Shown here: positions 29,001 through 57,880 of the stretch, in pieces
How the letters are laid out: each line of letters starts with the position of its first letter
Position numbering within the stretch: position 1 is the first letter of the stretch
NCBI GenBank assembly: GCA_964016885.1
Contig: OZ024743.1
Coordinates: 7,192,001 to 7,256,000 of the forward strand
Direction of reading: 5' to 3'
DNA: 64,000 nt
DNA from: Eledone cirrhosa
Lineage: Eukaryota
Notes under the pieces: model-generated
Database searches by the model: none
What the model saw: the letters and a program-made list of their open reading frames with translations, nothing else
What the model was told of the DNA's origin: nothing
Made by a program: the position numbers and the translations under genes

Positions 29001-29651
29001 TTGTCTATAAACATTTTTGAATTTACAAACCTGTTTTTAGATATTTTTTGCTTAAACCATTACAGGATATTAAGAGTTAAAGAATTATAATTAACATTGT
29101 ACAGTAGTAAAAATTACTATTTACTAGCAGGGAGAAGTGAATTGAAATTGCTAAGAGTTCTTGATAATATTCTACAAATATTTTCTTCCACATTTTTCGC
29201 TCTGATCAAACTTCATCTTTCACTTTTTACAGTCCATAATAGTTATGAGTTTCACTTTTACTCTATGTCCAATTTTTCCATGCTGGCATGAGTTGGACAG
29301 GTCATTACAGACCAAGTCAATACTTTATCAGAGATACTGACCTCTTAGATGGATTGGGGGACCAAGTCTTGCTCAATACATCCCATATTTTGGTACAGTT
29401 TCTATAGTTGGTTGTCCTTCATAACACCAATCACTTTATAAAGTATAATGTACATTTTATCATGGCTCCAGCACTACAAAATATATAAAAGGAAATTCAA
29501 AATTGCTTCCAATTTTCGTTACACATAAAAAAAAAAATAAAGTGTAAATGTAAATTTCCAATGTTTTTTTTATAGGTATTCTTTCTAATAATTTATATTT
29601 TCTTTGTAGGTCTTTTTACTTCCCATACTGATATTTATATTTTCTTTGTAG

Positions 29652-30439
29652 GTCTTTTTACTTCCCATACTGGTAACGTTTCTCATAAATACAATCTGGC
29701 AGCAATTCCCGATGATTCAGCTTTTGCTATTTGGGGTATAATTTACTTGGTAGAAACACTCTGGCTTTTGTATGCATTTACAACTATCTTTCGATCAACT
29801 TCCAAAGGACCTTTGTATGTTTCGTGTAATGTAATGCCCTTTCAAATGTTTTTTGCTTATATATTGAACTGTATTATTAATGTCAGTTGGTTAATTGCCT
29901 TTGATAGAGAAAAAATTCTTCATTGTGCTTTTATCATTTCCTTACTTCCAGTTTGCCTTATTGTTTGCTTAGTAATTTCTCATAAGAAATTGCATTCTTA
30001 TTCTATCTTCATGATTAAGGAATCATTATTTTTTGATATCTGGGCTAATCGATTCTTAGTCCAAAACAGTATTGCCATAAATGCTACATGGGTGTCAGTT
30101 GCAACATGTTTGAATGTTGGAATGGTTCTTACCTATGTTTATGATGTTACACAAGACATTTCTAGTATTATTGTTCTTATGATGGTGTCAATTGGAACTC
30201 TGTTATATACTTATTTTGATTATAAACGTAGGCTTACCCACTATACAATTACACCGTATATGGTTATTTGCTGGGCTGCAGTAGGAGTACTGATTAAAAA
30301 TGTCCCTCAAACCTCTTGGTCTGATAATATCAGTGTATTATCTCTTAGTCTCCTGATTGGTACTTGTATTGTGTTGGGCTTCAAACTGTTCTCCATTTTA
30401 GTTCCAGTAAAAAGTCGCCGTAAAAGTAAAGTAAAGTAA
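29652..30439 (+). CDS. Multi-pass membrane protein coding exon 2 (alternative in-frame acceptor at 29610); protein ~298 or ~312 aa
   Basis: tctttgtag|GT, open to TAA at 30439. Motifs TGNVSHKY..P..AFAIWGIIY, NVSWLIAF and ATWVSVATCLN match the uncharacterised animal TspO-like family. Ends ..KSKVK*. Confidence 0.85.
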
Positions 30440-37625: not shown

Positions 37626-39202
37626 ACAGATTTATTCTTACATGCAAAGCTGTCACAATATAAATATATTTCAGTGAAGAAAGCCTAGAGTGACACACTT
37701 TGTTTCATTTCTGAATGTCTTTAGTGCACTTTCTGGCCCCTGGTCTGTAGCCAACTAGTGGTCCGAGAGAAAATTTGGACATTATTTACTTTAAAGATGT
37801 TGTTATGATTACATAAGCATTTATAATTTTGTTATAATTAAATAAGTATTTATAATTGTGTTATATTTAATAGGTACATTTCATATTAATAAATGGAAGT
37901 TTTCTGATCATTATTTTACAAACGTATTTATCTTTTTTAAAAAATTCATATTAGTAGTTCGCAGGATTTAAACTTATGAATTTAGTGGTCGGCAACTATT
38001 ATAAAGTACTAGTAGTTAAATATCATTTGCACAGATTGTGGTGAAACAATCAGATTATACATTTACTCTTCACAATTTCACAGCTTCATCTGGATAACAT
38101 AACTAAAATATGACAAGTGAATTGTTAAAATGATAAAGCTTGATCTAAAAACAACTGGGTGCTATGAATATTGGCACCATATTTTCAAAGTAGTGATATC
38201 AAAATATTCAAGCCAGAAGAGTGGCTAAATGATATATCACAACTAGTAGTAAAACTAAAAATTACCCAACAGTTTTTATTGTAGAATCAAAACATTTATG
38301 ATCTAGCAACTGTAAAATTTTAAACAAAATGCATAGGTAGAATGTAATAGTAGCATGCAAATGTTTACCACCAAACACTGGTACTTTGATAACGAAGTTA
38401 CAAAACTCTAATGTGGAATATTACTTCAATATCTGAGTTATTGAAAAACAAAATTTAATCTAAGACACCCTCACCCACCCCAAAAAAGAGACACTTTTCC
38501 AATCTAACTACAGCTAAAATATAAGTTCCTTAACCCCTTCTTTTTTAAAACAAATGCGTAATTCTGCATCTTATTACTTCTACTATATCAAGTTGAAACT
38601 CTTTTCCTATGCATATTTCCTTCTGTACTTTTACAAAATCAGCATCAACTCTGTTTTTCTAATCAGAGAGATCCTTATCTGCTGATGTACCTGTCTGTTC
38701 TTGTCTTAACAGTTATTATTTTTAAAATCTGGACTGGATATGTCATAAATAAAAACTTCCAATCCATATTAAAGAAAGTATAAAATGGAATAAAAGGCAG
38801 AAATCATTCGACACTTTTAAAGCCAACATAATCAACAGTATTTAGTAAAATGACTAACCTTAAAAAATGCTATCATCTGTATATAACAAAAAAAAAAAAA
38901 AAAAAAAAAAATGCTGTTAATTCTCTTCTGTTGACTTACTTTTGACATGCCCTTGATATCATTTTTTTCTGTTTAATGGCAATCTCTATTTCTATGGCAT
39001 ATGATTTCTGTCTTAATTTTTTTAAAAATAAGAAATGATACAGGGCCCTAAATTTTATTTAGTTATTTAGAGATAAGATAGTGATTACCATAATAGTTTA
39101 AAATTTTGGAGCTAAGAAAAACAAAAGATAAAATGGATTTCATGAGTCATTCACAACTGATTGATACCAGCATGAAATCTAAGCATCAGACTGAAAAGTC
39201 AT

Positions 39203-39409
39203 TTACATATCATCTTGCATATAACGAAAATATTTTTTATTTTCATGATTCACATTATAATTGTTAGAATGGTATTGATTTTCACAGGTTTTTAGTTGCC
39301 TGATAGATGTACCAGACAAGGTTTGAAGTACATAGTCTCCAATGTCAAAGGAATATAATTCATTCCAAGAGAGACGTCCATCGTGGTTGCTGTCGATCAT
39401 GTGGAGAAG
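39203..39409 (-). CDS. JmjC oxygenase terminal exon with EF-hand
   Basis: ttcttcag|CTT...TAA. Encodes LLHMIDSNHDGRLSWNELY (canonical DxNxDGxLxxxE loop) and ends YMQDDM*. Total CDS 1203 nt = 400 aa. Confidence 0.85.
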   Translation of the reverse strand, partial: LLHMIDSNHDGRLSWNELYSFDIGDYVLQTLSGTSIRQLKTCENQYHSNNYNVNHENKKYFRYMQDDM

Positions 39410-40094
39410 CTGAAGAAAAACAAAATAAACATTTTAATAAAAATCGGATTAAAATCATAACAAATATTTCATAGAAAGAAGTGTTAAATTTGGTACAAAA
39501 ACTGTATAACGGCCAGTTCAATGCATATCGTTTAACGGCTAGCATGGGTTAAATAGATCTATCTAATGAAACACAGTTATAAGAGAACAAAGTTATATCA
39601 ACAAAACCATTGAATGTAAAGAATTTCCTGTATATAATGAATAACATTAAATGTTCATAGTACTGCAGGTATTGTGGCTGAATATCTGCCATAACTGAGT
39701 TTGCATGCAAAATATATGAGTGAATTGCTAATGAAAAATATGGAAATATATTTTATCTAAAAAGCATTGTAAAGTACATATAAAAATGAGAAAACTCATC
39801 ACTAGAATAGTTGTTAAAACAGTTAAATGCTGTCAAAGACAGCAATGGGCAAAAATGCCTCAGAGGACAGAGACAATCCACAAGGTGAGTGACAGGGAGA
39901 TGAAATATTGAAAAGATTGAAAGAGGAGGACAAGGAGAAGTGCCACACAGTAGTGACTCGAAGAAGGAAAGTAATTGATACGATATCCTGGTTAGAGGTA
40001 TGCTAAGAAAAATATGTTATATAGATCCATTTCTTTTGTGAAAATTACCAAATCATAGTTACTTTGCCAAAAAATTAGGATGGTTTTTACATAC

Positions 40095-40191
40095 CTGACT
40101 CCGTGATTCTTTATCAAACTTAGGAATTTCTGAAATAAATTCTTTATTGCTAACTGTTTCTTTATTAGCCCACTTAGAAAGTAGTTTTGAT
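40095..40191 (-). CDS. JmjC oxygenase exon 6
   Basis: ttccag|A...CAG|gtatgt, 97 nt. Encodes (R)SKLLSKWANKETVSNKEFISEIPKFDKESRSQ; phases fit both neighbours. Confidence 0.8.
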
Positions 40192-41242
40192 CTGGAAAAT
40201 TATTAAAAAATATTTCTCTGAAGTAATAAAATATTCAAACTGAATATAAATTTATGAAATATAGTTAGATAATTTCAAATTTTCTTCAACAATCTACAGG
40301 TAATTTTAATTCTCAATACCAATATTTGGTTTCCATGGCTGGATGCCCTTCCTAACACCAACCATATTTACAGTATGGACTGGGTGCTTTTTATCATGTT
40401 ACTGGCATGAACACTTTACAAGGTGGACTGGGTACTTTTTGTCATGTCACCAGCATGACCACTTTACAGGGCTGACTAGGGAGTTTTTGTTGTATCACCA
40501 GCATGACTACCTTACAGAGTTGGCTGGGAGCTTTTAGCTATTTCAGCAACATTATGGGGGAGTGTGTCCAGCTATCCGTGCTTATATACATGGAAGGTGG
40601 GGGAGGTCTATTGGAGGGGGACGTCTAAGATAGGGTACTTAGCTGGTGATGAATGGAGTGTTACTTCATGGGAGGTGGACACAAAGTGCTTTTTTGTCAT
40701 GGCAGCAGCATTATGAGAAGGAGGAGCAGACTTGGAGCATGTACTATTTTCCATGCCTGTATGTAGGGGTTGAGTGTTATCAGAGAGGTATCATAGGAAT
40801 GTGTATGGTGGGGAGGGAGTATGTTGGACATGGATAAGGTGTGTAGAGTATTTATTTGATGAGAGTGAGGTATTAAGACTAGGGAATGTAGAAGGTGGGG
40901 AGGGAGAGTATGCAAGTTAGACATGGATAAGGTGGATGGAGGTAGGGTCCTTTTTGAAGCTATCTTTTATAGCTGGTACCAACCTTTTTCCTCACCTCTT
41001 ACAACATTCTAAACCAGATACATACGTCATCAGCAATATAGTATAAAGAACTATGACTGTGCTTATGGATTGTCAAGTTGTAACAAGGAATTTCTCCATA
41101 GATAAAGTAGAAAGGAGTAATCTTCATAATCGTATGTCTGCTGCAAGTAGTGCTTACATTGAAAATACAATTTCTAAAAATCAAAATAAATATGTTATCA
41201 AACCGAAATTCAGTAGATAATTTTCTGGATAAATGTTCTTAC

Positions 41243-41407
41243 CTGACTTGTTCATTATTGGATTCAACTGCCAATTGTTCCAAAGTTAGAGGCTTACTTT
41301 TTACCTCCCTTGAATCACAGTCAGATTCATTAAGCCACCATAAGTGACTAAACCAAAAATTGATGCCCAAATTTCTTGCATTATTGGATCGGAATTGGTG
41401 ATACCAG
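41243..41407 (-). CDS. JmjC oxygenase exon 5 (distal His)
   Basis: ttaaag|C...AG|gtaag, 165 nt. Contains (G)WYHQFRSNNARNLGINFWF, completing the HxD..H triad. Confidence 0.92.
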
Positions 41408-43131
41408 CTTTAACAAATATTTATGGTGAAAAGAAAACAGTAAAATTATTCTAAATTCTGTTTGAAAATTTAAGTTTTAAGTTTAAGATAAACTTTTTTA
41501 TAGATTACTTTTAGAGATTATAGGTAAAATAAATACTTAACCACTATAAGTAAGACTCAACTAAATGCTTAGAAAGCATTCTAGAAATTCATTTGAAATG
41601 TACAGCTTAGTTTCACTGGTCACGTGTCTTATTTTAGGTTAGTAGTCTGTGAGTATTTATTTATTTATCATTATTGTAGAATTTAGTTTTTCGATCTACC
41701 ATAGTGGATACATAGCTGTATTCATGAGTTTTATATTGAATAGTAATATTTGATTCATTTGCAAAAAAATAACCTCATTACGCTATGTTTTTTAGATGAT
41801 CATTGCCATCCTTTTGTTCTAGCTGTGTGACAGAGAAAAACAATCGACAATATTGTTTCTGGATTATTGCCCTTTGTCTAAATTATGTATCTCTCTTCTG
41901 TCACTCACTAGAACTCTTGAGAATATATAGTATACATCGGTTGGTTAGCTTCATTATGTTATGTGTTTTAGCTGAACATCGCCATCCTTTTGTTCTAGCA
42001 GTGACAGAGAGAAACAATCGACAATATTATATATATATATAAAATATATCCTAATTAACTTCCAGCCTTGTCTTTCTAGCAGTGAATATTAATAATATTT
42101 GAGCAGTCATAATCATCTGTATAATTTGAGTATGGAATTGGTATTAGAAATTTGTCATAGAGATAATAAATGCACAACACTCTTTGTTTCAAGTCTCATT
42201 AACTCTTAACATCCTATAACACTTGAAACTGCAGAAGCAAGACATTGAAAAGTACAAAACAGCACTATGACTGCATTACACTGAAATTTAAAATCTGTAG
42301 ATTATTGAAAATATCTACAACAATCTGTCTACTAATAAAAATGCTACAAAAATTTGGATTAAGAAACGTTTTTTGATATTTTATCCTAAATCATACTAGG
42401 ATGTTAAAGAGTTAAGATTGATTTATTTTTTCATTTTACCAAATTCAAAATAATAAGTATTATATATTAAACCCTTCTCATTCTAATGTTTTTCTATGCT
42501 TGTATAGATTGAATAGATTTGCAATACAACATGTAGCCATTCATCTTAATCATATGTCATTTTCTTATAAATCCATATTACCTTACTGACATGAAGTAGA
42601 TGATCCTTACATTTTGGAAATTGAGGAATAAATGCGAGATACTGTTACTAACATTAGCCACTCAACCATTCACTGAAAGTAGTTATCTATTTTCAGTTAT
42701 TTTGAAGTTAATAAAATAATGTGGCGTAAGCCTTTTGATACCAAACTGCCTGAAAAGATCCTATGACACAAAACTATCTATTTAAAAGTGTTTATATACA
42801 TCTAAAAACTCTCCATCATAATTTTATGTAAGAATCTTTAAGTTATATTCTAAACACCAATTTCATTACTAAATCCCCCCTAAATTTGGATTATTTTAAA
42901 AATAAATTGAAAATCATAGGCAGTGTTTTTTTAATTAGAAATATAGTAACGTAAGGGTTAAATTAAAAAACAACACACTGCTAAAGTCAAGATTTGAGAT
43001 TTTGATTTTAATATCACAGGTAGAACCACAGTACCATATAAAGCTAACAGAAAATACATATATCAATTACAAATTATATTCCATAGTTATATTTTAATAA
43101 TCAAAATTTAATAAACTATATTTAAACTTAC

Positions 43132-43292
43132 CCATGAGGTATGTAAAGACAATCTCCTTGTTCTAAAACTGCTGTGGACCAATTAGTTTGTTGCAATTTA
43201 GGAAACATTTTTAGATTTACTGCATCAACATCCACTTTACTGAAAGACCCGTCTTGCATAAAGCCATCTGCTTCAACCAAATCCTTCTGAGC
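43132..43292 (-). CDS. JmjC oxygenase exon 4
   Basis: ttttag|GCT...GG|gtaagt, 161 nt. Contains FSKVDVDAVNLKMFPKL..AVLEQGDCLYIPH(G). Confidence 0.93.
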
Positions 43293-44688
43293 CTAAAAAC
43301 ATTAAGGTTCAGACTCTACTTGATATTAAAAATGATACTAAACATTAAAAAGTTATAAAATCATATCTTGTTGAACTTTTATTAAATGTATTGAAATTAA
43401 AATATAATGTAAACTGTTCATACACCACACTATGGTATTTATTTAATCAACCTAAATGAAAACCTAAGACAATAACATCGATGAATGCATAGTGTTACAG
43501 ATTTATTCTTCACTGAAACTGACTGATAAAATGATGATAACCGCAATGATGATATATAAAAATGTTGTCTTTTCTTTTTTTTTTGCTATTCTTTTATAAG
43601 CTCCTCTAAATATTTCAACAAAATACTAAAATCATTAAAAATGTATCACATATCATATACAATACTTAATTACATAAATATTTCACATAACGAAAGAAAT
43701 ATTAATTCAACACTAAGTGGAGGTACATGGCTTAGTGGTTAGAGCATTGGCCTTGCAATTGAAAGGTTGTGAGTTCAATTCTCAGACTGGGTGATGTGTT
43801 GTTTCTTTGAGCAAGACACTTTATTTCACATTGCTCCAGTTTACTCAGCTGTAGAAATGAGATGATAGGGACTGGGGTCTCTATCATTCCACTGCAAAGT
43901 GGTTGTGGAGGTGCCACGGCAAAAAAGCACCCAGCACTCACTGTAAATGAGGTTGGGGTTAGGAAGGGCATCCAGCTGTAGAAATCAAGCCAGAATCAGT
44001 TCCCGTCCCACCTTTGCAAGCAGGGAAAAGCGGACATAAAATAATGATGATGATGACGTGTCAATTGGTCACATACTACAAGAGGGCTGGATCCTCCCTC
44101 TAATTCTTTTAGAGGCAAGCAGTGATTTCACAACAAAGAAAAAATAATAAATATACATCCATGGATAGATATTTAAACAAAATTAGAGGATCAAATCATA
44201 AATGACTTATTTAATGTGCAACAAAATTATTAAATATTTCAGAAATTAAAGAAATAGTGATGCCACAAAATAAATAAAATTTAAAAAAGATGCTCATAAA
44301 CAGAGACACACACACAACATAAATATAAACAGACAAGGTATTTTAACCCTTTAGCATTTACATTACTCTATATATACTATTGTATTTTCATAGTAAACAC
44401 TTTATCTCACACAATATCGAATCTACGAGGTTTTGATATTATTTTGAGAACAATACCTTCACATCAGTATGAGCAGCCAGTTATGGCTGGTTGCAACAGA
44501 AAGAGGTGAGAGAATTCTGGCCGGATACAGCCAATTTAAATGCTAAAGAATTAAGAATAAGAATTAAACAATCTCTACAACACCAGATATATCACATACT
44601 CATATGTGATGCAGACTTTGGTTGTGCAAGGTGTAGTGTAACAGACAAAATATATTGTTTCTCTGCAGTAAATTATATACTTATATAA

Positions 44689-44891
44689 TTAACCCTTTTG
44701 CAACCATTTTCTAATGAAATACTCTTTATTTCAATTAATTAATGAAGAATTTTGAGGGATTAACTAAAACTACAAATTATTTCATTACTAAGATAGTAAC
44801 TTAACTTATGGTTCTTATTTAAATAGGAACCCTTTAAAATTGGTGGTTTTGTTTCAGGGAACTAGAACTAGTTTGCTATCAAAAGGGTTAA
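44689..44891. mobile_element. Second TTAA-flanked MITE family (related copies ~42730-42961, 51865-52100, 60478-60725; a third family at 46610-46709 and 48195-48309)
   Basis: TTAACCCTTTTG ... CAAAAGGGTTAA ends and shared interiors. Confidence 0.65.
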
Positions 44892-47355
44892 AGAATCTAC
44901 TGGTGGCTCCAATTGAAATGGGTTGTGTGACAACACATATGATTCCTAATGATTTATTACAGCTTATTGACTACCTTACATTTTTTACATAATAAATACC
45001 AGAACATTTGGTAGTGTACCTTAGCACTGTACACAATAATTTTCATTATTACTATTATATATAAGTGGTTGTTGAAAAGGTGGTTGGTCAAGGGCATGAC
45101 AACCTCTTTATTGTTGGTGATTTGATAAAATGTACCCAGTACATTCTGTAAAGTGATTGGTGGTAGGAAGAGCATCCAGTCATGGAAAATTTTCCAAACA
45201 GAGTCAAGAGAACTCTTCAATTGTATCAAAGATATGACAACTTCTCTAGTGCCAGTGCTATGATAAAATGTAAGTGATATGTGGTCCTCCAGCCCATCTA
45301 AGAGTTCTGTAGCTCCAAATAAATAGATCAGGGATTACATTATCTAATGTATTCTTTATTTAAAATGCTGGGTTTGATTTGAAGGATATCTGACTATTAT
45401 TTCTAGCAGACAGGTCAAACAACCACATAGAGGTTTCCTCAATGGCTTGTGATTGTAAATATATTGTTGAAGCTGATGTCTATGAAGGAGAAATATGGAA
45501 GTTTAAGATTGTAATGTTGTTGTTGTGTAGCCCAGCATGGACAAATAGACAAGGAGTTTATTTTACAATCATTAAGTTCCATGTTCAATCCCATGTGACA
45601 TCTTGGGCAAATGTAATTTATTATAGCTTTGAGTGAAATTGGGTAAATAGAAACTGTTTGAAAGCCTATTGGATGGATAATAGCTGTAATTCAAGGGGCC
45701 AACCTTGTTGAATACTGTGTCACACTGAAACTCCATGAGAATTAGGGTTATGATATACACGTCTATGGAATCCTCAGCCACTTAAACATTAATTTAATGA
45801 GCAGGTCGTTTCATTGATTGAAGAACTGGAATGTTCATTGTTGAAAGCAACACAGGTCCATTTTATTCCAGCTGAAATCAACTGTGATTCTATGCCACAT
45901 ATCTAGGGTGGGTAAAATTCCCGAGATCCATGGATGAGTTCTCTCCAGTTATGCATGTTCTTATTGATGTTAAGCCCCAGATCAACCTGGATTGAACAGA
46001 CCTATGATCAAAGACATTTCAGACATAACTATCTCGTCTTCTTAGGGGTCTGTAGGAATACATTATGATAATATATCAAAATACCAAAGTTATTGTTGTT
46101 TTTCAGTTTCATAAACTGAGCGTGCGTGTGTGGGTGCGTGTGTGTGTGTGTGGGGGGGGGGGGGGGTTGAGTGGGGACAGGATATTCTGAGGACATTAAC
46201 ACAGCATGTAACAAGATGAATTATAACATCCCATGGACCCTAAATTTTGATGTAGTTGTTTCAATATTATATTTAAACCTAACAGAACCCATCCCTCTCC
46301 AGACTGAAACACAGTTCACCTCTTTCAAAGAGAGAGAATGAGTGGAAAAATCACCCCCAGTACTGGACTGATACTTTATCAACCTTGAAAGGATAAAATA
46401 CAAAGTTGATCTTGGCAGGATTTAAACAGTGAGCTGGAATATATACTGCAAAGCATTCTATCTGACATTTTAACAACTCTGCTACTTCCTCACCTTATGA
46501 TACTAAGTGACCAACATAAAAATATAAAGAATAACTGATTGTTTTTACAACATGATACTGAAGATTTTTAGTAGAAGGGAAAAAGCTCCTACTTTTCTGA
46601 AGAGTATAATTAACCTTCAACATACTAGAAATTTTTATGAATTGCTTATGTATTAAGGGGAGATTACTCTATCGGCGATTTAATGCACCTGGAGCCTCCA
46701 GAAGGTTAATGTAATTGAATTCAAGCACAATCTTGGAAGGGAGTTGTATATTAGTTTCACCAAGAAATTACTGTTGCACTATGACATCTGCCAACAGCAT
46801 TAAATTCTTCACCATTCATGAATTTAGCATTCATTAATCTTTGTGATTTAAATATCAGCAGGATTGAATGAATTAGCTAAAAGTATTACATTTTTAATTT
46901 GTTGTTATTGTTTGGGATTAAACACAACTTACATTTCATTGGGAAGATTGGAAATAACAGGCCACCATTATTCTTATGAAATTTCTTCTTGAAGAATATC
47001 TGATAGTTCAATAAGTTATAAAAAGAAAATAATTAGGAACCTTAGACAATAACAATACAGTTTACATATAAACATAGAAAATTGACATTTGTAAAATATT
47101 GATGACAAAATTTACATGCAAGTATACAAAGCATGCTGTATAAAGCTAAGGTTAACACAGATAAGATAAGTGATATAGTGAAATAAGCTCTGACAGAGAA
47201 GGAAAAGGAGAAAAACTAAATAAGGAAGAGTAAAAAAAAAAATAGAGAAAAAAGAGAAAAAAAGGAGAAAAGTTTTGAAAAATATTCTAGTTAATAAAAT
47301 AGGTTTAAAACAATTACTAAAACCCTGAACTCCTGAAAAAACAAACATACTTAAC

Positions 47356-47525
47356 CTTATTAAAAAGAAGAACAACTTTCTGACCATCTAATACACAATT
47401 AATATTGTCCATGTCGTCTGAGTGTAATACAGACCGTGTATTACCATTGCTCAACCACAATACACTGTCTTGTAATACCTTTTGAAAACCACCACAATTC
47501 AATAAAGGTGGAACTATTACTTCAC
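47356..47525 (-). CDS. JmjC oxygenase exon 3 (HxD iron-binding motif)
   Basis: ttgcag|GT...AAG|gttaag, 170 nt. Contains VLWLSNGNTRSVLHSDDMDNINCVLDGQK, with HSD at 47416-47424 and the 2OG-binding Lys. Confidence 0.93.
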
Positions 47526-48444
47526 CTGCAAATAAAAATAAAAAATAATAATAATAATAATTACAAAGAAAAGAAAAAAAGAAAAGGAGATTTGGTATAC
47601 AAGAAAGAAAAATATAAAGTAAGAAAAATAATGAATTGATGCAAGTATGGCTGTGTAGTTAAGAAGTTAGGTTCACAACCAGGTAATTTAGGGGCTCAGT
47701 CTGACTGTATGGCACTTGATACGAGTGTCTTCAACTATAGCCTCAGGTTGATCAATGTCTTGTGAATGAAATTTATTAGGCAGAAACTACGTGGAAGCCT
47801 GTTTTGAAAGGTCAGTTTTTATCACCTCATCCCAGGTCTTTCTAGTCTTCCTACTCCATAGCTACCATCAACTTTGAATGCTTTGCACCTTCTATACAGC
47901 TTATAACTATAAACAAACAATAAATCAGCCTAACACACAAAGTGCCACGCAGACAACATGTCGCCTAAAAATAGTATATGTTCTTCTATCTTAACATCTA
48001 ATCAGGCTTATTTATCATATTATACATAAGTCAAATTATAAATATTTGACGCCACTCCCTAGGACTAAAGTAAATACTGCACTGATTGGATTACTGACAT
48101 TGTCAAGTACATACCACCAATTCTCAAATGCTGATTGGTTAACTTTCACTAAAACTACCTACTAACTCACCTCTATAATATTAGACCCTATTCTTAACTT
48201 TTAGCATGCAACAAATTTTTATGAATTGCTTCCCTTGACACTGCATTATGTATTAAGGGGAGATAACTCTATTGGCAACATAATGTACCTGGAGCCTCCA
48301 GAAGGTTAACCAATCATAATCTCTCTGATGAGCTGCTACTATATCATCTTACAATGCAGTGTGCAATAATTCATTGTGCATTTATGATAACCAATTAAGC
48401 CTGTTACAGATGATACAGTTGCAACAAAATATGTCAGAATTATT

Positions 48445-50940
48445 ATCATCATCATTATCATCGTCATCATCATTTTACGTCCGCTTTTCCCTGCTTGCAA
48501 GGGTGGGACGGGTCTTATTTAGCACAGCATCTCTCCACTTGTCACGGTCCTTCATCATCTCCACCATGAGCTTCAGTAATCTGAGGTCTGTTCTCACCAC
48601 CTCTGCCCATGTTTTTCGTGGTCTACCTCTACCACGTCTTCCTTCAACAGGCATTTCCTGGCACTTCTTCACCCATCGGTCATCCTCCATGCGCATCACA
48701 TGTCCATACCACCTCAGTCTCCTCTCTCACACACTACATTCTATCCCTCTCAGACAGTTTCTCTCTCAACACATTCATGCTGGGTCGTTCACGCACATTG
48801 ACATTGCACATTCAACGGAGCATGCTTGCCTCATTTCTCTCCAGCTGCTGCCCATGTCTCACTACCATGCAGCATCGCGCTCCTCACACAGGCATCATAT
48901 AACCGGCCTTTCGTACACAGGGAGAAACTCTTCTTTGTCAGTAGAAGAAGCAGCTCCCTAAATTTCTTCCAACCCGTCCTTATTCTAGATACTATGGCCT
49001 CAGAACACCACCTCCAATGCTAATCTGATTTCCTAGGTACCGGAAGCTATCCACCTGCATTTGAAAGATGTGTCTATCAATGCGACTTCTATTGTCTAAT
49101 TTCCCTGTACATCTACTGCATACGTATTTCTCCCTACCTGTTAGTTTGTTGCCTGCTATCCCGCTACATCTCTTGTGTACCCAGGATCTGCATTGTGTGC
49201 ATTTTATAGAATGTATGCCAGTTCCTTTTCTGCATATCGAACATGGCCATTTCCCTGACGGAATCAGAGTGTTGTCCTCTTTTCTACTCATCAACACTTT
49301 TGTCTTAGCTAGGTTCACTCTCAGTCCTCTTGCTTCCAACTGCTGTTTCCATAGCCAGAATTTATTCTCTAGCTCCTCTACTGATTCTGCTATAAGAACC
49401 AGATCGTCAGCATAGAGAAGTTCCCATGGACAGCCAGTCTTAAACTCCCCTGTTATGGCTTGGAGGACTATAATGAACAAGAGCGGGCTGAGGACCGAAC
49501 CTTGATGTACTTCTACTTGTATTTGGAATTCCTCACTAAACTCCATTCCTACTCTGACTTTACTCTCAGCACGTCTGTACAAAGTTTGCACTGTCCTCAC
49601 AAGCCATTCCTCAACACCTAGTTTCCTTAGGGACCACCAGATGACAGATCGAGGTACCTTATCAAAGGCCTTCTCTAGGTCAACAAAGGCTAAGTATAGT
49701 GGCTTATTTTTCTCTAAGAACCTCTCTTGCAATTGTCTCACCAAGAAGAGGGCATCTGTTGTACTTTTCCCTGGCACAAAACCAAACTGCATCTCATCTA
49801 GTTCGACCCTTTCTCTAATTAGTTGTGCTAATATCCTTTCTGCCACTTTCATAACCTGATCCATCAGTTTTATACCCCTATAATTACTCGTCTCCAGAGC
49901 ATCCCCTTTACCTTTGTAGCAATTTATGAGAATACTGCTGCACCATATATAGCCTGATTGATGATCCGTGCAACCAGTTTAGTGCTTACGTTCTCTGATG
50001 CCTTCAGCATCTCAGCAACTATCCCCGACAGTCCAGCAGCCTTACCATTTTTTATTTTCTTAATCGCTGCTTAGACCCTATATTCAACAATCTCAATAGC
50101 TGGTCCCTCTGTCGGATCTACTGAGGGTAATTTCTCTCTCTCCCATTCGTTCTCCACGTTCATCAGTCTCTCATAATGACATTTCCAGGCCTCCTTTTTC
50201 TGATCATTTGTGACACTAAGTACACCGGCATCATTCCGGACACATTTATCTCCAACAACATCCTGATTTGCATTGACACACTGCCTTGCAATGTGGAATA
50301 CCGCACGCCTCTGATCTTCTCGTCGCAGAACATTGGCAAACCTCCTACTCTCAGCCTCCCTGTGTGCTAAGTACACCTGACGTCTAGCTTCTCTCTTAGT
50401 GGCTGTATATCCTTCTCTACTCCCACCCTTTTTCCAAGCCTTCCATGCTAGTCTTTTGTCTCTAATGGCCTTATCTACTGTGCTGTTCCACCACCAGGTC
50501 ACTCTCTGTCTGGTTGGAGCTCTGCTCCAGCCACAAGTTTCATCAGTAGCCTGCAATAAGTTGTCACATAAGAAATTCCAGTTACTATCTATGTCATACG
50601 TCTCTAAATCGTCTTCTTTTTCGTCATACACATCTTGAAGGGCTTTCCTAAATTTGTATTTTAGTGAAAGGTCTTTTAGCTTCCAGACCTTTCTTCTCCA
50701 CACCTTCCTGTATGTCTCATTCCATCTCTTGCTTACTGAGATATCACTAACGATTAACCTATGCTGTGGGGTACATTCTTCCCCAGGGTATGCCTTGGTA
50801 TTTGACACCATCTGCCTGTCCCGCTGCCTAACTAGTAAGAAGTTAATCTGGCTTATGTGCTTGCCTGATTTGTAGGTTATTAGGTGGTTGGCAGGTTTCT
50901 GGAAGTTAGTGTTGCAAATAGTCAGTGTACTTGCATCACA
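48445..50940 (-). mobile_element. 5'-truncated RTE-clade LINE (end of APE, RT, PHD-like finger) in JmjC intron 2
   Basis: ORFs 50071-50811, 48992-49864 (AFVDLEKAFDKVP, VHQGSVLSPLLF, LYADD) and 48475-48699 (GRRGRGRPRKTW); (TGA)n tail. Confidence 0.95.
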
Positions 50941-51021
50941 AAATTTATATTAATAAATGAAATATTGAATATATACTACCTCTCAGCCACTGAGATTTTT
51001 GCATAATCTCTGATCAATGTG

Positions 51022-51054
<33 letters not shown>

Positions 51055-51209
51055 AAACACAGACATGTACATACCATGACATGTAAAAAGCAAGTGAAGA
51101 AGAAAATGGAATGAGAAAGATGATAGAGAAAAAGAGGTTTTAGTAAGAGTATAGGAAAAGATTATAACGTTAACTGGTGAAGAAACATTAAAAATGGAGA
51201 GGATAGTAC

Positions 51210-51361
51210 CTTTCATCTCATTATGAACACTTTGCACCATATAGATATCATTTGTGACATAATAGTCTAAAAATGTTTTTAAGTTATAATATTGGGGCTT
51301 GAGAGAGCGGTTTTCTTTCTTACTTTGTTCAACACGAACTTTTAAGTTACCATATTTTTCA
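51210..51361 (-). CDS. JmjC oxygenase exon 2
   Basis: tttcag|T...G|gtact, 152 nt. Encodes (C)EKYGNLKVRVEQSKKENRSLKPQYYNLKTFLDYYVTNDIYMVQSVHNEMK. Confidence 0.88.
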
Positions 51362-53104
51362 CTGAAATAGAAAAAGAAAAATTACAAAAATTAATTTATG
51401 CTTAAAAATGGATGACAAACATACATACACCATTAATATATCTATTACGGCAGATACTTAAAACAGATCATAAACACACACACATACACTAATATACATC
51501 TACATAGGTACACACAAAATAGATCACAACACACACATACATACACCAATACATAACTACATACATAAAATAGATAACACACACACACACACCAATAAAA
51601 TATCTGTTAACCCTTTAACATTTACAATACTCTGTATATACTATTGTATTTTCAAGGTAAAGGCTTTAACTCACATAATATCAAACCTATGAGATTTTGA
51701 TATTTATTTATTTTGAGAAAAATACCTTTACATCAGTATGAGCAGCCAGTTACAGCTGGTTTGAACAGAAAGAAGTGTGAAAATTCTGGCCGGATACATG
51801 CTAAAGATTAGGGCAAGCTTGATGAATTGTTATGTTATGATGCTAAATAACAAACACAATGTTAACCGTTTTATGACTGTATTTCAAATAAAATACACAA
51901 TAATTCAATCAATTAATGAAGAATTTTGAGTGATTTACTAGAATTATTAATTATTTGATTATGAAGATAGTAACTTAACATATAGTTCTTATATAAAATT
52001 ATGTTGGAAGATTTTAATTTAAATAGGAACTCTTTAAAATAGGTGGTTTTATTTCATTGAACCAGAGCTGCTTTTGACCAGGTTATTATCAAAAGATTAA
52101 TATCACCCCCCCCCCTTTCCTGTGGCCCTAGAGTCTTTGCTTTTCCCCTCCTTTTCCTCCATTTATAGCTTTTATAGTCCTTTCCTCTACTTTCCCATAC
52201 AGTCAGATCTACCCTTCCTTACCTCTTCCCCCTTTTCTCATTACTTAATTTTGCTTTTATCTTTCTTTCTCATATTTTTTTTTGAAAACAAAATTATTAG
52301 GTCTTATCACACGTACAGTCCCTAATATCCCAGATCCAGTATTTGATCTTTTGTGTTAAGCTTGTAGTCAAGACACAATGAATTATAGTTAAATTTATAT
52401 TAGAAATGGCATATTTTGTCAGAACACATCATATTAAATATATGCTTTGGCATTTGATTTATATCTGGTTTAAAATCTTTGTTTAATTTTGTTTATAAAA
52501 AAAAAACAAATCAAATCCCAACTAAACAAATATTTATTACAGGGATTTAACGTACATTAATTTCCTTGATAAGCTGGAATTGAACTTTTTTAAATATTCA
52601 GATAACTCTTAACATCCAGTAATGATTTAATAGAAAATATCTAAAAACAGGTTTGTTTACTTAGTGGACAGATGGTTGTGAAAATTTGCAGTAAACTAAA
52701 CTAAAGACTTAAATGTTTCATGTGATGCAGTCATAGAGCTGTTTTGTCCTTTTATATACAAAAGGCGGCGAATTGGCAGAATTGTTAAAACATTGGATAG
52801 AATGCTTTATGGTATTCGTTCTGGCTCTCTGCCCTCTGAGTTCAAATCTCACCGAGGCCAATTTTGCCCTTCATCCTTTTGAGGTCGATAACAAATGTAC
52901 CAGTCTAGTACTGGGGTCGATTCTTCCTCTATATCTCTTTCTCATTTCCTTTCTCTCACTCTCCATCTTTCTCTGGAAGAAATCTGCTGTATTCAGACCT
53001 AGAGAGATGATGGACTCCACCAGGTTTAAAAAGGCTCCAAGAAATGCTGTATGTCAATATGGTGCCCTACAACTCCCTCAGGAGTTACGGGTTCATACAT
53101 ACAA

Positions 53105-54120
53105 CTACTATATAACAATAACAATAATGAAATATTGTGTACAGTGCCCAGGTGCACCACAACTCATCAAAAAAGTGCATGTACAGTACATAGGGCAATG
53201 CACAAACATCAGTAAAATGAACAGTGCACGAGTCATGATACACACGTGTGCATGTGTATGGAAGGGGTACATCAGGTGTAGTTTTGGCGTATTTCGGGAA
53301 GCATGAATGTCTTAAAGGATGCAGTGTCTCGGCAGCTAACAATTGACGCAGGCAGTTTGTTCCATGCTTCAGCAACTCTGAGCGTGAAAAAATGTCTGCG
53401 AAAGTCATGGGAGCTGTGCTGTTTTCTTATCTTGTAGGCATGTCCACGTGTGTTAGACACATGGAGATCAAAGAGGCGCTCAGGGTTGCAGTTGGCGAGA
53501 TGGTTAAAAACTTTGTGGGTATTCACCAAGTCCATTGCCAGACGTCGGAGCTTCAATGAATCCATGCCCAGGGAAGCAAGGCGTTCAGAGTATGGTAGGT
53601 GTCTGATGGAGGGTATGCGCTTGGTTGCACGTCTCTGAACAGTTTCCAGGAGGTCAATGTTCTGAGCAAGATAGGGGTTCCAGACTGATGATGCGAATTC
53701 CAAGTGTGGTCGCACCATAGCTGTATACAGTTTTAAATAGATGGCTGGAGAGTGGCTAACAAAGGTCTTGCTGAGTGATGCCAAGACACCCTCGGCCTTC
53801 TTGACAATCTTAGAGACATGCTTTGTCCAACGCAAATCATTGCTGACAGTAATGCCCAGGTCACGTTCACAAGAGGACTTTTTGATGTCAGTGTTGTGGA
53901 GGGAGTATGTGGACGCTGGATTTTTCCTTCCAAAATGCATGGTGGTACACTTGTCCACAGCCAGCTTCAGTTGCCAGTCTGTGATCCATTGCTGCATTGT
54001 GTCCAGGTCTGATTGTAGGAAAGAGTTGTAAATTTCAGGATCAGTCCTTTTGATTTCAAGGTACAGCTTGATGTCATCTGCATATTTTAGTACCGTGGCA
54101 TTCTGTAAGTTGGCATCTAT
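53105..54120 (-). mobile_element. 5'-truncated CR1 LINE in JmjC intron 1
   Basis: LKYADDIKLY at 54061-54090. ORF 53272-53997 has ERDLGI, VRPHLEFASSVWNPY, LETVQRRATK, TRGH and FFTLRVAEAWNKLP. Short 3' ends also at ~4725-4890, 45010-45060, 56140-56185. Confidence 0.95.
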
Positions 54121-55043
54121 AAGGAAGATGTTGATGCTGTTTTTCTCACCTAAATTTTTGTTTATTACTGTTGCAAAACAAAAATAAACAAAAGCAAGAG
54201 GGAATGAGACTATGATTTCAAAAACATTTAAAATGTTAATTAACTCCTAACATCCTGCAATGATTTAGAAGAACAATTTATAAAAAAAACAAGATCTGTT
54301 AATTCAAATATATATAATTTATTTATTTATTTATTTATTATTTTTTTTTTTTTTTTTTTATTGGTGGACAGATCATTGTGAAAATTTGCAGTATTAGTGT
54401 AAAGACTTTAAATTTTAATGTGATGAAAAACCTTCTCAAGGCAATAAGGAAGTCTCCATATGGTTACTTAACTTGTTAGAAATAGCAACTGAAACTCATT
54501 CAAATCACACCCTAGAAGGAAAGATTTTGGATAACACATTTCTAAATACACTATTCCTGAAAAAAAAGAGCTAGTTGTAACTGAAATATTCATCATGGTC
54601 TGTCTAATCAGGAATTACCTGGAGCTGAACAACATTCTGTTCTATATCATTTACCGTATCAGCTTCTGTCCTTTTATTATCTAGTTAAAATACCTGCTAA
54701 TTTCCATTTCTCATAACTTTAAGACTTCATATTTAATAAATAATAATAATAATAATTAGGGTGGAGGATTAACAGTATCAGTAGTGTGTTATGCTTTGTG
54801 GCATGTAGTTTCATCCCTTTATGTTCAGAGTTCAAATTCTGCTGAAGTTACCTTTACCTTTCATCCTTACACGGTCGATAAAATAAAGTGCCAGTAATGC
54901 ACTGGGGCGATTTAATTAATTTTCCCCTCCCTCAAAATTGTTGGCCTTGTGCCTTAACTAGAAACCATTATTATTACCATTATCATTGAAGAAAACAACT
55001 AATGAAATATGTATATGATATAAAATTAAGAGAAACAACTTAC

Positions 55044-55294
55044 CATAAATATTCATCCGTCCAAATATTCATCATAGGAAAAGTAGTGCCAGTAAGAACG
55101 TTTTTCATTAATAATGGTAATTCAGGCTTAACAAAGCCATTGTAAAATTCAGTTGTACTTGGAAATTGGGAAATATAGTCCATATGCTGTCCATTTTCGG
55201 AATGTTTTCCAAGAGGGAGCAGTTCTTCAGCCAAAGAATATATAAACAAGATTAACACGAGATACATTTTGTGATGTAGTTTCAATTCAACCAT
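55044..55294 (-). CDS. Secretory-pathway JmjC/cupin-like 2OG-Fe(II) oxygenase, coding exon 1 (second possible ATG at 55267)
   Basis: Encodes MVELKLHHKMYLVLILFIYSLAEE..PSTTEFYNGFVKPELPLLMKN..WTDEYL, then TG|gtaag. Hydrophobic signal peptide followed by the N-terminus typical of FIH/JMJD5/JMJD7-type cupin-like JmjC proteins. Confidence 0.88.
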
Positions 55295-57880
55295 GATTCG
55301 TTTCTTTCAAAATGCTGCCACCATTTTTTGGTTCTTAGGGAGAAACAAAAAAAAAAATTCATTAATTTTGAAAATGTCTACATTATGTATCAATATACCT
55401 AAAAATCTTACAGATGATATTTCCAATGTAATAAAATTGCTGTTTAACCCTTTAGCATTTACATTACTCTATATAAACTATTGTATTTTCATCATAAAGG
55501 CTTTATCTCACATAATATTGAATCAATGAGAGTTTGATATTATTTATTTTGAGAACAATACCTTAACATCAGTATGAGTGGCTGGTTACAGCCAGTTTGA
55601 ACAGAAAGAGGTGAGAGAATTCTGGCCAGATACAGCTGGTTTAAATTGCTGTTTATGTAAAGTAAAGTTAAATGTAGTATATCTAAATGTAATCTGAGTT
55701 TTCAATAGTCACAAAGTCTATTAAAACTTTCAAAAGAATTTTCCTGGGAAATTTAGATTCTTATTATTATATGAAACCAAGTTTATGATACACACAAAGT
55801 GAATAAACTTTTCCCATGATCACGCTCGCCAACACATTTTTTTAATCATATAGAACAACTAGACAGCAAAATAAATTCCTGGAGTTGTCATAAACTACTA
55901 AAAAAAAAAAAGACCTCTGTTTCATTTACCCTTTCCATAAAATTTAATATCTAAATGTGGATGCACAACTGAATTTTCCATCTCCAAGAACTTAAAATAT
56001 GGTTCAATTGCTTATCATTATTTTTGACATCTCTTGAAGCAAAAAACATTTATTTAGCTGTAAATATTGATTCTGTAAAAGGCGGCAAATTGGCAGAATC
56101 GTTAAAATGTTAGACAGAATGCTTTGCAGTGTTTGTTATAATAATAATAATAATGAAAATTATTGTGTACAGTACTCAGGTGCACTGGCTCTTTGCTCTC
56201 TGAGTTTTAATCTCGCCGAGGTCAACTTAGCTTTCATTCTTTCGAGGTCAATAAAAAAAGTACCAGTCTAGTACTGGGTTGGTTCTTCCTCTATATCTCT
56301 TTCACACTTTCTCTCTCTCTCAATCTCTTTCTGGAAGAAATCTGCTGTGTTCAGACCTGGGGAGGGGTGGGCTCTGCCAGGCTTAAAATGCCCAAGAAAT
56401 GCTGTATATATGATACACCCACAACTCCAACTGGAGTTATGGCAATAATATTCAATCAAAATATAGATTCTGTAAAGCAAGATCAAACGATGCCCTCTTA
56501 GTGTACTGGTAATTTCTGTGAAAACTACTTAATTTTAATTTACCGTGCTAAATATCTTGGCTTCTTTTCATTTAATTTTCAGCTGCTAAACCTTGAAATT
56601 GTATTGTTTTGTTTTTATATCACATCATTCTTTTTCTGTACTGAGACATAACCCCCTCCTCCATTTGTTTAGTGATCCCCATAAAATGCTCAACAGATAT
56701 TTTGTAGCCTCAAAAATTATACTTAGTCTTCAACATATTAGGGGTACTGATTCCAAATATATTATTGGTTTTGTTATACTGACTCTAGTTTTGGAGATAC
56801 ACCCTTTTATGTACTGATGTATCACTCATGTTAAAATTAGAGACTCTAGTAGCACTTTAAATTGTGGTGCCATAGAACTTAGTTCAATATTTGGATATAT
56901 TTAGATCAGTGATTAAAAAAAACGACATCAGTTTTGCCCTCTTTAATTAATTGATAATCTGTTATTTTCATACAAAAATAACAATATTATTGCTATTAAT
57001 ATGTTACACACTATTAAAACAACCACATATCACTAAATCAGTATATTTAAGCACAAAAGCTAAAAATTAAAGACACTGAACAAAGAAGGTGTCTGCTTTG
57101 GTTACTTAAACAGTAAATTCCCTGGCTTGAGTACAGAAAATTTAACCTTTTCACATTCAAACCGGCCATAACTGGCTGCCATATGTATGTTAAGGTATTG
57201 TTCTCAAAATAAATAATATCAAAATCTCATAGATTCAATATTGTGAGATTAAAGTGTTTACTGTGAAAATACAATAGTAAATATAAAGGCTAAAGGGTTA
57301 AAGCAAGAGAAACAGTTTTATAGTTTCCAGATAAGAAAACATATAAAAGATTCATATCTCATAAATTCCAACCCATTTTGTCTCTGACTGTGACAATCCA
57401 CCCAAGCTATGCCAGCAGAGGAAGTGGGTGTATGATGATGATAATGATGATAAACACTTTAAAATAAACTCTGTATCCTAGAACAAGGGGTGATTTTAGA
57501 CAGTTTGGTATCAAAAGTGATAACACTTTCAATTACTACAGATTCAATAAATAAAAAAAAATTAATAAATCACAGAATTAGTTCTAACTTTACAGATTAG
57601 CATTCTTAGGAACAAATGTATATTTTTTTTGTGGCGTATCTTGGGCATTTCAAATATGACAGACTTTATAATTAGATAAATTTGAAATTGATAGTTTAAA
57701 CTTCATTATAAAATAAATGTTATATTTTAAATGACAGTATATGTACTTTTTAGTTGATCACATTGACCACAGTACTTATTTTATTATTCTCTGTTTGTTG
57801 GACTGCTAAGTTATAGGATATACTCAGTAAACATACAATAACAGAAACAGGCACACACACACACAAAACAGGCTTTCAAC

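What the first reader, a model, noticed from the sequence alone, without database searches (positions are those of the whole stretch)
39203..55294. Secretory-pathway JmjC hydroxylase with intact catalytic triad and a C-terminal EF-hand
Seen: seven phase-compatible exons give a 400-aa protein with a hydrophobic N-terminus (MYLVLILFIYSLA|EE), a FIH/JMJD5/JMJD7/TYW5-type cupin JmjC core (HSD..K..WYH), a canonical EF-hand loop (DSNHDGRLSWNE) and a C-terminal QDDM reminiscent of KDEL-like signals. Known: this JmjC subfamily is mostly nuclear or cytosolic. ER 2OG oxygenases with Ca2+-binding motifs (P4HTM, ASPH) belong to other subfamilies, and ER-located JMJD8 lacks the HxD triad. Inference: an uncharacterised, possibly Ca2+-regulated lumenal hydroxylase of secreted proteins. 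Automated pipelines may mislabel it a demethylase or TYW5.
Basis: partly seen in the sequence, partly recalled or inferred. Interest (0 to 1): 0.72.

Follow-up and report, generated by a model that had tools for sequence, protein, structure and literature searches.

The report
Octopus HRJD oxygenase of secretory pathway
This seven-exon octopus gene belongs to an already named invertebrate enzyme family (HRJD, linked to regeneration and proposed to act on histones), but its likely signal peptide and the ER-retrieval tails of most relatives suggest that these enzymes hydroxylate proteins inside the secretory pathway rather than in the nucleus.

Summary
The gene is real: seven minus-strand exons give an intact 400-aa protein, and one spliced contig matches the model. 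It is not an undescribed family. It scores 196-277 bits against three named HRJD proteins (Cao 2019, 'regeneration' genes proposed as histone demethylases), a family that most likely equals the 'secreted JMJD5-like' family of Iyer 2010. The genome's true JMJD5 lies elsewhere. What the papers checked do not state: among 156 relatives, 114 of 128 N-complete ones have a hydrophobic leader, 100 of 137 end in xxE-L/F (72 match the KDEL pattern), and 88 of 124 keep EF-hand ligands. The two planarian HRJDs used in RNAi and fly-lifespan work end KYEL and HDEL. Lampreys have the gene, against the published 'lost in vertebrates'. In octopods the tail has decayed to QDDM/MQDM, so ER retention of this copy is doubtful. 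Best reading: a lumenal Fe/2OG protein hydroxylase, perhaps of Arg/Lys; substrate, activity and Ca2+ regulation are untested. This scan reached the same family reading before on Trichoplax and coral DNA.

The parts
55295..55336 (-). 5' UTR part of the first coding exon, with a short in-frame upstream ORF (ATG 55324, stop 55309-55307); acceptor AG probably at 55335-55334
   Evidence: contig X2 record 9 aligns from 55336; translation shows the in-frame stop. 109 further 5' letters of the contig come from an unlocated upstream exon
55044..55294 (-). Coding exon 1: predicted signal peptide (aa 1-22, S-L-A|E) and PLGxH motif, start of JmjC N-terminal extension
   Evidence: hydropathy 2.9 in best 10-aa window; orthologs start at the same Met
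55229..55294 (-). Predicted signal peptide, aa 1-22
   Evidence: hydropathy heuristic only; SignalP not available
51210..51361 (-). Exon 2: E95 (JMJD5 E238 position), K-K-E100-N-R motif, Y124 (JMJD5 Y272 position)
47356..47525 (-). Exon 3: C145, W158, S166, H169-x-D171 (47424-47416), N175, C178, K184 (47379-47377)
   Evidence: Cupin_8 E 1.9e-8
43132..43292 (-). Exon 4: JmjC core to G-D-C239-L-Y-I-P
   Evidence: Cupin_8 E 2.4e-6
41243..41407 (-). Exon 5: W-Y-H248 (41400-41398), last JmjC strand, N271 sequon, C275
40095..40191 (-). Exon 6: first, ligand-poor helix-loop-helix of the EF-hand pair
   Evidence: 97 nt = gap in spliced contig; helices 296-307 and 315-321 in the model of the ortholog
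39203..39409 (-). Exon 7 coding part: canonical EF loop aa 338-349 (39394-39359), tail ending QDDM (39217-39206), stop
   Evidence: family profile hits calmodulin/NCS-1 type proteins over positions 284-376
39000..39202 (-). 3' UTR (at least)
   Evidence: covered by contig X2 record 9

Best explanation
The gene encodes an HRJD-family (secreted JMJD5-like) JmjC oxygenase that is likely imported into the ER by a cleaved signal peptide and likely uses Fe(II), 2-oxoglutarate and O2 to hydroxylate side chains, possibly Arg or Lys, of proteins passing through the secretory pathway. Shown: gene structure, splicing, family membership, intact metal and 2OG residues, non-orthology to JMJD5. Inferred: ER import; two disulfides (C145-C275, C178-C239); Ca2+ binding by the second EF-hand, which at lumenal Ca2+ is more likely structural or depletion-sensing than a classic on-switch; catalytic activity; a basic-residue substrate (JMJD5's Arg-binding E238 is kept, its Y243 is replaced by a family-specific K-K-E-x-R loop). 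The family as a whole is likely ER-resident through xDEL; this octopod copy, with QDDM, is likely retained weakly and may work later in the pathway, while two paralogs in the same genome appear to keep HHEL and KEEL.
For: Family: 114 of 128 N-complete proteins have a hydrophobic leader against 19 of 1037 internal control windows; 72 of 137 C-reaching proteins match [KRHQSA][DENQ]EL and 100 end E-L/E-F against 12 and 179 of 14,976 internal positions; 143 of 149 keep H-x-D/E, K and H; 136 of 145 keep all four Cys, two lose C145+C275 together and two lose C178+C239 together. All JMJD5 metal/2OG residues listed in PMC5862942 (H321, D323, H400, K336, Y272, S318, N327, W310) have counterparts. Model of the O. 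vulgaris ortholog: pLDDT 91, best match JMJD5 Z 24.9, rmsd 2.4, 226 aligned, then TYW5 23.0, FIH and JMJD7 22.4, histone demethylases 19.3 or less. BLASTP of the spliced protein: 277/236/196/159 bits to LgHRJD2, NvHRJD3, TaHRJD4, BfHRJD4 against 63.5 to the genome's own JMJD5. Planarian DjHRJDa/b start with hydrophobic leaders and end KYEL and HDEL (read by eye from the supplement). Expressed planarian HRJDs are non-nuclear and act non-cell-autonomously on junction proteins (PMC11295675). Iyer 2010 predicted hydroxylation of cell-surface proteins.
Against: No member has a measured activity, substrate or ER localisation in the papers found. The signal peptide rests on a hydropathy heuristic. 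QDDM departs from the best motif at three of four positions; D at -2 and M at -1 were each only partly effective in human cells (PMC2140024). JMJD5's Y243, needed for Arg hydroxylation, is not conserved and the alignment there is ambiguous. Some family members have H-x-H (C15 paralog, DjHRJDb), and DjHRJDb still gives phenotypes, so a non-catalytic role is possible. The published 'cytoplasmic' staining used an N-terminal 3xFLAG and does not separate ER from cytosol. EF-hand hits are below Pfam cut-offs for the single protein.
Confidence: 0.65

Rival explanations
1. Nuclear histone demethylase that controls stem cells epigenetically (the HRJD model of Cao 2019; database label KDM8/JMJ30-like).
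For: JmjC domain with intact residues; KDM8 is the nearest human protein; planarian RNAi impairs survival after amputation; JmjC demethylase precedent.
Against: Leader, xDEL tails and paired Cys across the family; no chromatin-reader domain among the Pfam families of 117 members; expressed HRJDs are not nuclear; the model is closer to the hydroxylases than to demethylases; JMJD5 itself was shown to be an arginyl hydroxylase; the genome's JMJD5 is another gene.
Confidence: 0.04
2. This octopod copy is not ER-resident but moves on to the Golgi, secretory granules or the outside, and hydroxylates its targets there.
For: Tail is QDDM in the window and O. vulgaris, MQDM in Argonauta, RDEL in the sister P0003; paralogs appear to keep HHEL/KEEL; Iyer 2010 called the family secreted.
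Against: The last residues R-Y-M-Q-D-(D)-M are kept across octopods while the upstream tail varies; D at -2 and M at -1 each gave some ER localisation, and many ER proteins stay without the motif. This differs from the best reading only in compartment.
Confidence: 0.15
3. Mostly non-catalytic ER protein: a Ca2+-binding folding or assembly factor in the manner of JMJD8.
For: JMJD8 is ER-lumenal, has H in place of D and binds folding factors; H-x-H members exist in this family; many relatives have long acidic tails.
Against: 143 of 149 keep the whole triad plus lysine and 139 also Y124 and S/T166; this copy has all of them.
Confidence: 0.1
4. Lumenal 2OG oxygenase with a non-protein substrate (glycan, lipid, small molecule) or a JMJD5/7-type peptidase activity.
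For: TYW5, almost as close in fold (Z 23.0), acts on a tRNA base; JMJD5/7 have been reported as peptidases (listing).
Against: Three of the four nearest folds modify proteins; the JMJD5 substrate-site E238, W310 and S318 positions are kept.
Confidence: 0.06

Closest known systems
HRJD family (Cao et al. 2019, PMC6390904; Nagai et al. 2024, PMC11295675; PMC11077316)
   Same: Same family: four named members (NvHRJD3, TaHRJD4, LgHRJD2, BfHRJD4) are among the homologs found and score 159-277 bits; same taxa; separate from KDM8.
   Different: Published as JmjC-only putative histone demethylases; the main texts have no hit for signal peptide, endoplasmic or EF-hand. Here: leader, EF-hand pair and xDEL family-wide; lamprey members; three copies in this octopus genome against one listed for O. 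bimaculoides; decayed tail in this copy.
'Secreted JMD5-like family' (Iyer et al. 2010, PMC2938197, Table 1)
   Same: Animal distribution, conserved Cys, JMJD5-like core, lineage expansions, predicted hydroxylase of cell-surface proteins.
   Different: The GHxxxhG motif is present in 98 of 156 relatives but this protein has lost the G-H (E-E-L-L-P-L-G-K-H). The main text has no hit for KDEL, HDEL, retention, lumen, calcium or EF-hand; its supplement could not be read.
JMJD5/KDM8 arginyl C3 hydroxylase
   Same: Nearest solved fold and sequence; metal, 2OG and E238 positions kept.
   Different: About 24% identity; not the ortholog (own JMJD5 = L001, 316 bits against 60); Y243 absent; lacks JMJD5's N-terminal domain; has leader, EF-hands and tail.
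JMJD8
   Same: JmjC protein of the ER lumen with a signal peptide.
   Different: JMJD8 has H for D at the iron site; no JMJD8 sequence was available, so the relationship was not tested directly.
ER 2OG hydroxylases with Ca2+-binding parts (P4HTM, ASPH, collagen P4H/PLOD); recalled
   Same: Works-like analogy: Fe/2OG hydroxylation in the ER lumen.
   Different: Different 2OG subfamilies; PHD/P4H-type folds score only Z about 10.

Membership tests
HRJD (Cao 2019) | BLASTP score above 100 to named HRJD proteins | tested here: met
   277, 236, 196, 159 bits to LgHRJD2, NvHRJD3, TaHRJD4, BfHRJD4
HRJD (Cao 2019) | Groups with HRJDs apart from KDM8 | tested here: met
   FastTree of 155 cores: nested among molluscan members incl. 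LgHRJD2; own JMJD5 on a branch of 2.4 substitutions per site; single outgroup, so monophyly against other subfamilies is not tested
HRJD (Cao 2019) | JmjC domain with Fe and 2OG residues | tested here: met
   H169, D171, H248, K184
HRJD (Cao 2019) | Role in regeneration | not testable with these tools
   no expression or knockdown data for this gene
Secreted JMJD5-like (Iyer 2010) | Conserved disulfide-type cysteines | tested here: met
   C145, C178, C239, C275; all four in 136 of 145 relatives
Secreted JMJD5-like (Iyer 2010) | N-terminal GHxxxhG motif | tested here: not met
   G-H missing in this protein and its cephalopod sisters, hG-x-H half kept; present in 98 of 156 relatives, including molluscan members of its subclade. 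Read as a derived loss; the gene is filed under HRJD, and HRJD = this family is an inference
Secreted JMJD5-like (Iyer 2010) | Secretory leader | tested here: met
   hydropathy 2.9, small residues at -3/-1; heuristic, not SignalP
JMJD5/KDM8 ortholog group | Best match of human JMJD5 in the genome | tested here: not met
   L001 scores 316 bits, the ortholog of this gene 60
JMJD5/KDM8 ortholog group | Arg-binding E238 and Y243 | tested here: inconclusive
   E kept (137 of 155 E, 11 D); Y not kept, alignment ambiguous
JMJD7 / FIH / TYW5 ortholog groups | Ortholog-level similarity | tested here: not met
   33-44 bits, partial cover against 127 bits or more for 150 family representatives
JMJD8 | H-x-H iron site | tested here: not met
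   this protein has H-S-D; JMJD8 has H for D
KDEL-receptor clients | C-terminal [KRHQSA][DENQ]EL or tested variant | tested here: not met
   QDDM; met by 72 of 137 relatives; QDDM was not seen in the passages read of PMC2140024
EF-hand Ca2+-binding proteins | Helix-loop-helix with ligands at 1,3,5,12 and Gly at 6, in a pair | tested here: met
   loop 338-349 matches the pattern; paired helix-loop-helix with short strands in the model; family profile hits calmodulin/NCS-1 at E 1e-8 to 1e-5. First loop lacks ligands
EF-hand Ca2+-binding proteins | Ca2+ binding or regulation | not testable with these tools
   needs ITC or activity assay

The most novel reading that the evidence does not exclude
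HRJDs are the missing ER-lumenal, EF-hand-bearing Arg/Lys hydroxylases of marine invertebrate secreted proteins (the kind of enzyme needed for hydroxyarginine in mussel plaque proteins and dihydroxy-Arg/Lys in ascidian peptides); their regeneration and gut-barrier phenotypes come from modifying matrix or junction proteins, not chromatin, and octopods have redeployed one copy beyond the ER by eroding its KDEL tail.
Probability: 0.25. Interest if true: 0.8.

Novelty: new member of a known kind. Interest (0 to 1): 0.5.

Why it matters
The gene itself is an ordinary member of a named family. The family-level anatomy matters: three papers interpret HRJD phenotypes (planarian death after amputation, head loss, longer life and better gut barrier in flies) through possible histone demethylation, yet the very constructs used carry hydrophobic leaders and end in KYEL/HDEL. 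That turns an open question (what do HRJDs do?) into a direct test: look for hydroxylated secretory proteins. It also offers candidate enzymes for hydroxy-Arg/Lys in marine adhesives and defence peptides, and lamprey copies weaken the link between gene loss and poor regeneration in vertebrates.

Tried and rejected
First exon join had two boundaries off by one base and broke the frame; corrected. Upstream coding exon that buries the leader: rejected by the in-frame stop in the transcribed exon. Processed copy as source of the spliced contig: no intronless copy of this family among the 8 matches in the own genome (counts are lower bounds). No RNA holder listed by the run search; the upstream UTR exon was not located. 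JMJD5, JMJD7, FIH, TYW5 orthology rejected. A multi-outgroup tree was not built: full-length JMJD7, FIH, TYW5, HSPBAP1 and JMJD8 sequences were not at hand (own-genome search gave single exons only). Searches for a paper stating ER retention or EF-hands for this family found none: 1 unrelated paper; 30 of 96 listed, JmjC only in the JMJD8 paper; 1 unrelated; 3 HRJD papers of 6 listed; 20 of 36 listed, none on this family by title; 0; the library lacks most subscription journals, and the Iyer supplement was not readable. Search of earlier findings by sequence gave nothing. No complex prediction was run, as no binding claim is made.
Full report
1. Observation. Seven exons with GT..AG introns join to an open frame of 400 codons plus stop. 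In run X2 (kind not on record; four runs, one study) a 1670-nt contig lays on exons 1-5 and 7 in order without introns, and its record coordinates add up exactly with my exon lengths, leaving 97 nt for exon 6. The contig enters the first coding exon near 55336; the stretch before the ATG at 55294 holds an in-frame stop, so the hydrophobic stretch is N-terminal in this transcript. Orthologs from Octopus vulgaris (P0001, 83.5% identical) and Argonauta hians (P0002, 77%) have the same start, length and motifs. The window thus comes from an octopod.

2. Family. A whole-library search with P0001 gave 4317 representatives at E up to 0.001 and 154 up to 1e-30; the best 150 were fetched. With the hits this makes 156 proteins, all chosen by likeness to P0001. 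Of 30 looked up by name, those with a species came from molluscs, Nematostella, Trichoplax, a crinoid, hemichordates, amphioxus, a rotifer and lampreys; their labels are JMJD5-like, JMJD7-like, KDM8-like or uncharacterised. In this set 114 of 128 N-complete proteins have a hydrophobic leader (control 19 of 1037 internal windows), 72 of 137 that reach the C-terminus match the KDEL pattern and 100 end in E-L or E-F (control 12 and 179 of 14,976 internal positions), 143 of 149 keep H-x-D/E, K and H, 88 of 124 keep EF ligands at 1, 3, 5 and 12, and 136 of 145 keep four cysteines, with two double losses of each predicted pair. A profile of 117 members hits JMJD5 at E 4e-40, JMJD7 3e-30, TYW5 2e-24, FIH 3e-19, JMJD6 5e-10, and calmodulin/NCS-type proteins over positions 284-376 at E 1e-8 to 1e-5. 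The AlphaFold model of P0001 (pLDDT 91, pTM 0.87) shows the JmjC barrel followed by a paired helix-loop-helix; best structural matches are JMJD5 (Z 24.9, rmsd 2.4, 226 aligned), TYW5, FIH and JMJD7.

3. Not JMJD5. The own genome has an intronless gene (L001) that scores 316 bits against human JMJD5; P0001 scores 60. L001 has no hydrophobic leader (0.48). The own genome also holds two more members of the family: one on contig C7 with leader, H-T-D, EF loop and a probable last exon ending HHEL, one on C15 with H-S-H and a probable last exon ending KEEL (last exons assigned by inspection, no transcript). In a FastTree of 155 cores rooted on L001 the window protein groups with P0001 and P0002, then P0003 (RDEL; unnamed source), support 1.00, inside a molluscan subclade whose other members mostly end in xDEL/HDEF/HTEL. 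The QDDM/MQDM tail is therefore a derived decay in octopods. In human cells D at -2 and M at -1 each gave only partial ER localisation (PMC2140024, passages).

4. What is known. Iyer et al. 2010 (PMC2938197, passages) list a 'Secreted JMD5-like family': animals, lost in vertebrates, arthropods and nematodes, disulfide cysteines, GHxxxhG motif, predicted to hydroxylate cell-surface proteins; no hit for EF-hand, KDEL, lumen or calcium in the main text; supplement not seen. Cao et al. 2019 (PMC6390904; parts 1-5 of 7 and supplement part 1 read) named the HRJD genes, showed death of planarian fragments after RNAi and proposed histone demethylation; four of their listed IDs are among my homologs, and the spliced protein scores 159-277 bits against them. 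No hit for signal peptide, endoplasmic or EF-hand. Nagai et al. 2024 (PMC11295675, passages and supplement 3) expressed the planarian genes in flies: lifespan and gut barrier improved, the effect on junction proteins was non-cell-autonomous, and N-terminally FLAG-tagged protein was non-nuclear. Read by eye, the DjHRJDa and DjHRJDb coding sequences begin with hydrophobic leaders and end KYEL and HDEL; DjHRJDb has H-Y-H at the iron site. PMC11077316 (passages) confirms the RNAi phenotypes and again invokes demethylases. Against the published loss in vertebrates, proteins of Lampetra planeri, L. fluviatilis and Lethenteron reissneri on contigs of 14-35 Mb have H-Y-D, K, H, an EF loop and SDEL, and score 228 bits.

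5. Mechanism. Shown by alignment: every JMJD5 residue named for metal and 2OG binding in PMC5862942 (passages) has a counterpart (H169, D171, H248, K184, Y124, S166, N175, W158), as has the Arg-binding E238 (E95); Y243 does not, and a K-K-E-x-R loop stands there. Inferred: import into the ER, disulfide formation, Fe/2OG/O2-dependent hydroxylation of a protein side chain, with a basic residue as the first guess. That ER lumen supports such chemistry (collagen P4H, PLOD, ASPH) is recalled. Hydroxyarginine in mussel plaque proteins (cited in PMC11603075 and PMC7971044) and dihydroxy-Arg/Lys in marine peptides (PMC10608444) are candidate products; nothing here ties them to this family. The second EF loop is canonical, the first is not; since lumenal Ca2+ is high (recalled), a structural or depletion-sensing role is more likely than activation by Ca2+ rises.

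6. Against. No activity or localisation has been measured for any member in the papers found; the leader call is heuristic; H-x-H members give phenotypes; the tree has one outgroup; JMJD8 could not be compared directly; the spliced contig comes from one study.

7. Verdict. Real gene, correct anatomy, new member of a named family. The value lies in the family-level correction (secretory pathway, not chromatin), half anticipated in 2010 and not taken up by the HRJD papers. Two earlier notes of this scan on Trichoplax and coral DNA reach the same reading; I found them after my own tests and they are not independent support. Interest 0.5.

Noticed in passing
window 55324-55307 (-): Five-codon upstream ORF in frame with, and ending 12 nt before, the main ATG; both ATGs have A at -3 and G at +4. 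Could damp translation.
   Followed up: no
window 48478-50949 (-), intron 2: Broken LINE-type retrotransposon: RVT_1 E 6e-30 plus PHD finger in 48995-49978; very high read depth.
   Followed up: partly
window 53275-54246 (-), intron 1: Second reverse-transcriptase remnant, RVT_1 E 5e-7.
   Followed up: partly
window 29576-30436 (+): Stop-free frame of 287 codons, very hydrophobic, several predicted membrane helices by eye; no Pfam hit at E 0.001. Looks like an intronless membrane-protein gene.
   Followed up: partly
window 55278: A>T variant in three runs, changing codon 6 of the leader (Leu to Gln); probably an allele.
   Followed up: no
L018-L019 (G000:C15, about 25,954,600-25,963,000): Paralog with H-S-H and R for K at the active site and probable KEEL end, resembling planarian DjHRJDb (H-Y-H, R-K-D-F): a possibly non-catalytic or altered subfamily conserved from flatworm to octopus.
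   Followed up: partly
L001:676-2178 (+): The genome's JMJD5/KDM8 ortholog is intronless (500 aa).
   Followed up: partly
P0085: A member from a marine microbial eukaryote transcript collection with a hydrophobic leader (E 7e-39), near the base of the tree; if not contamination, the family is older than animals.
   Followed up: no
P0033 cluster (P0164-P0167): Lamprey members with full architecture and SDEL, although both family papers report loss in vertebrates.
   Followed up: partly
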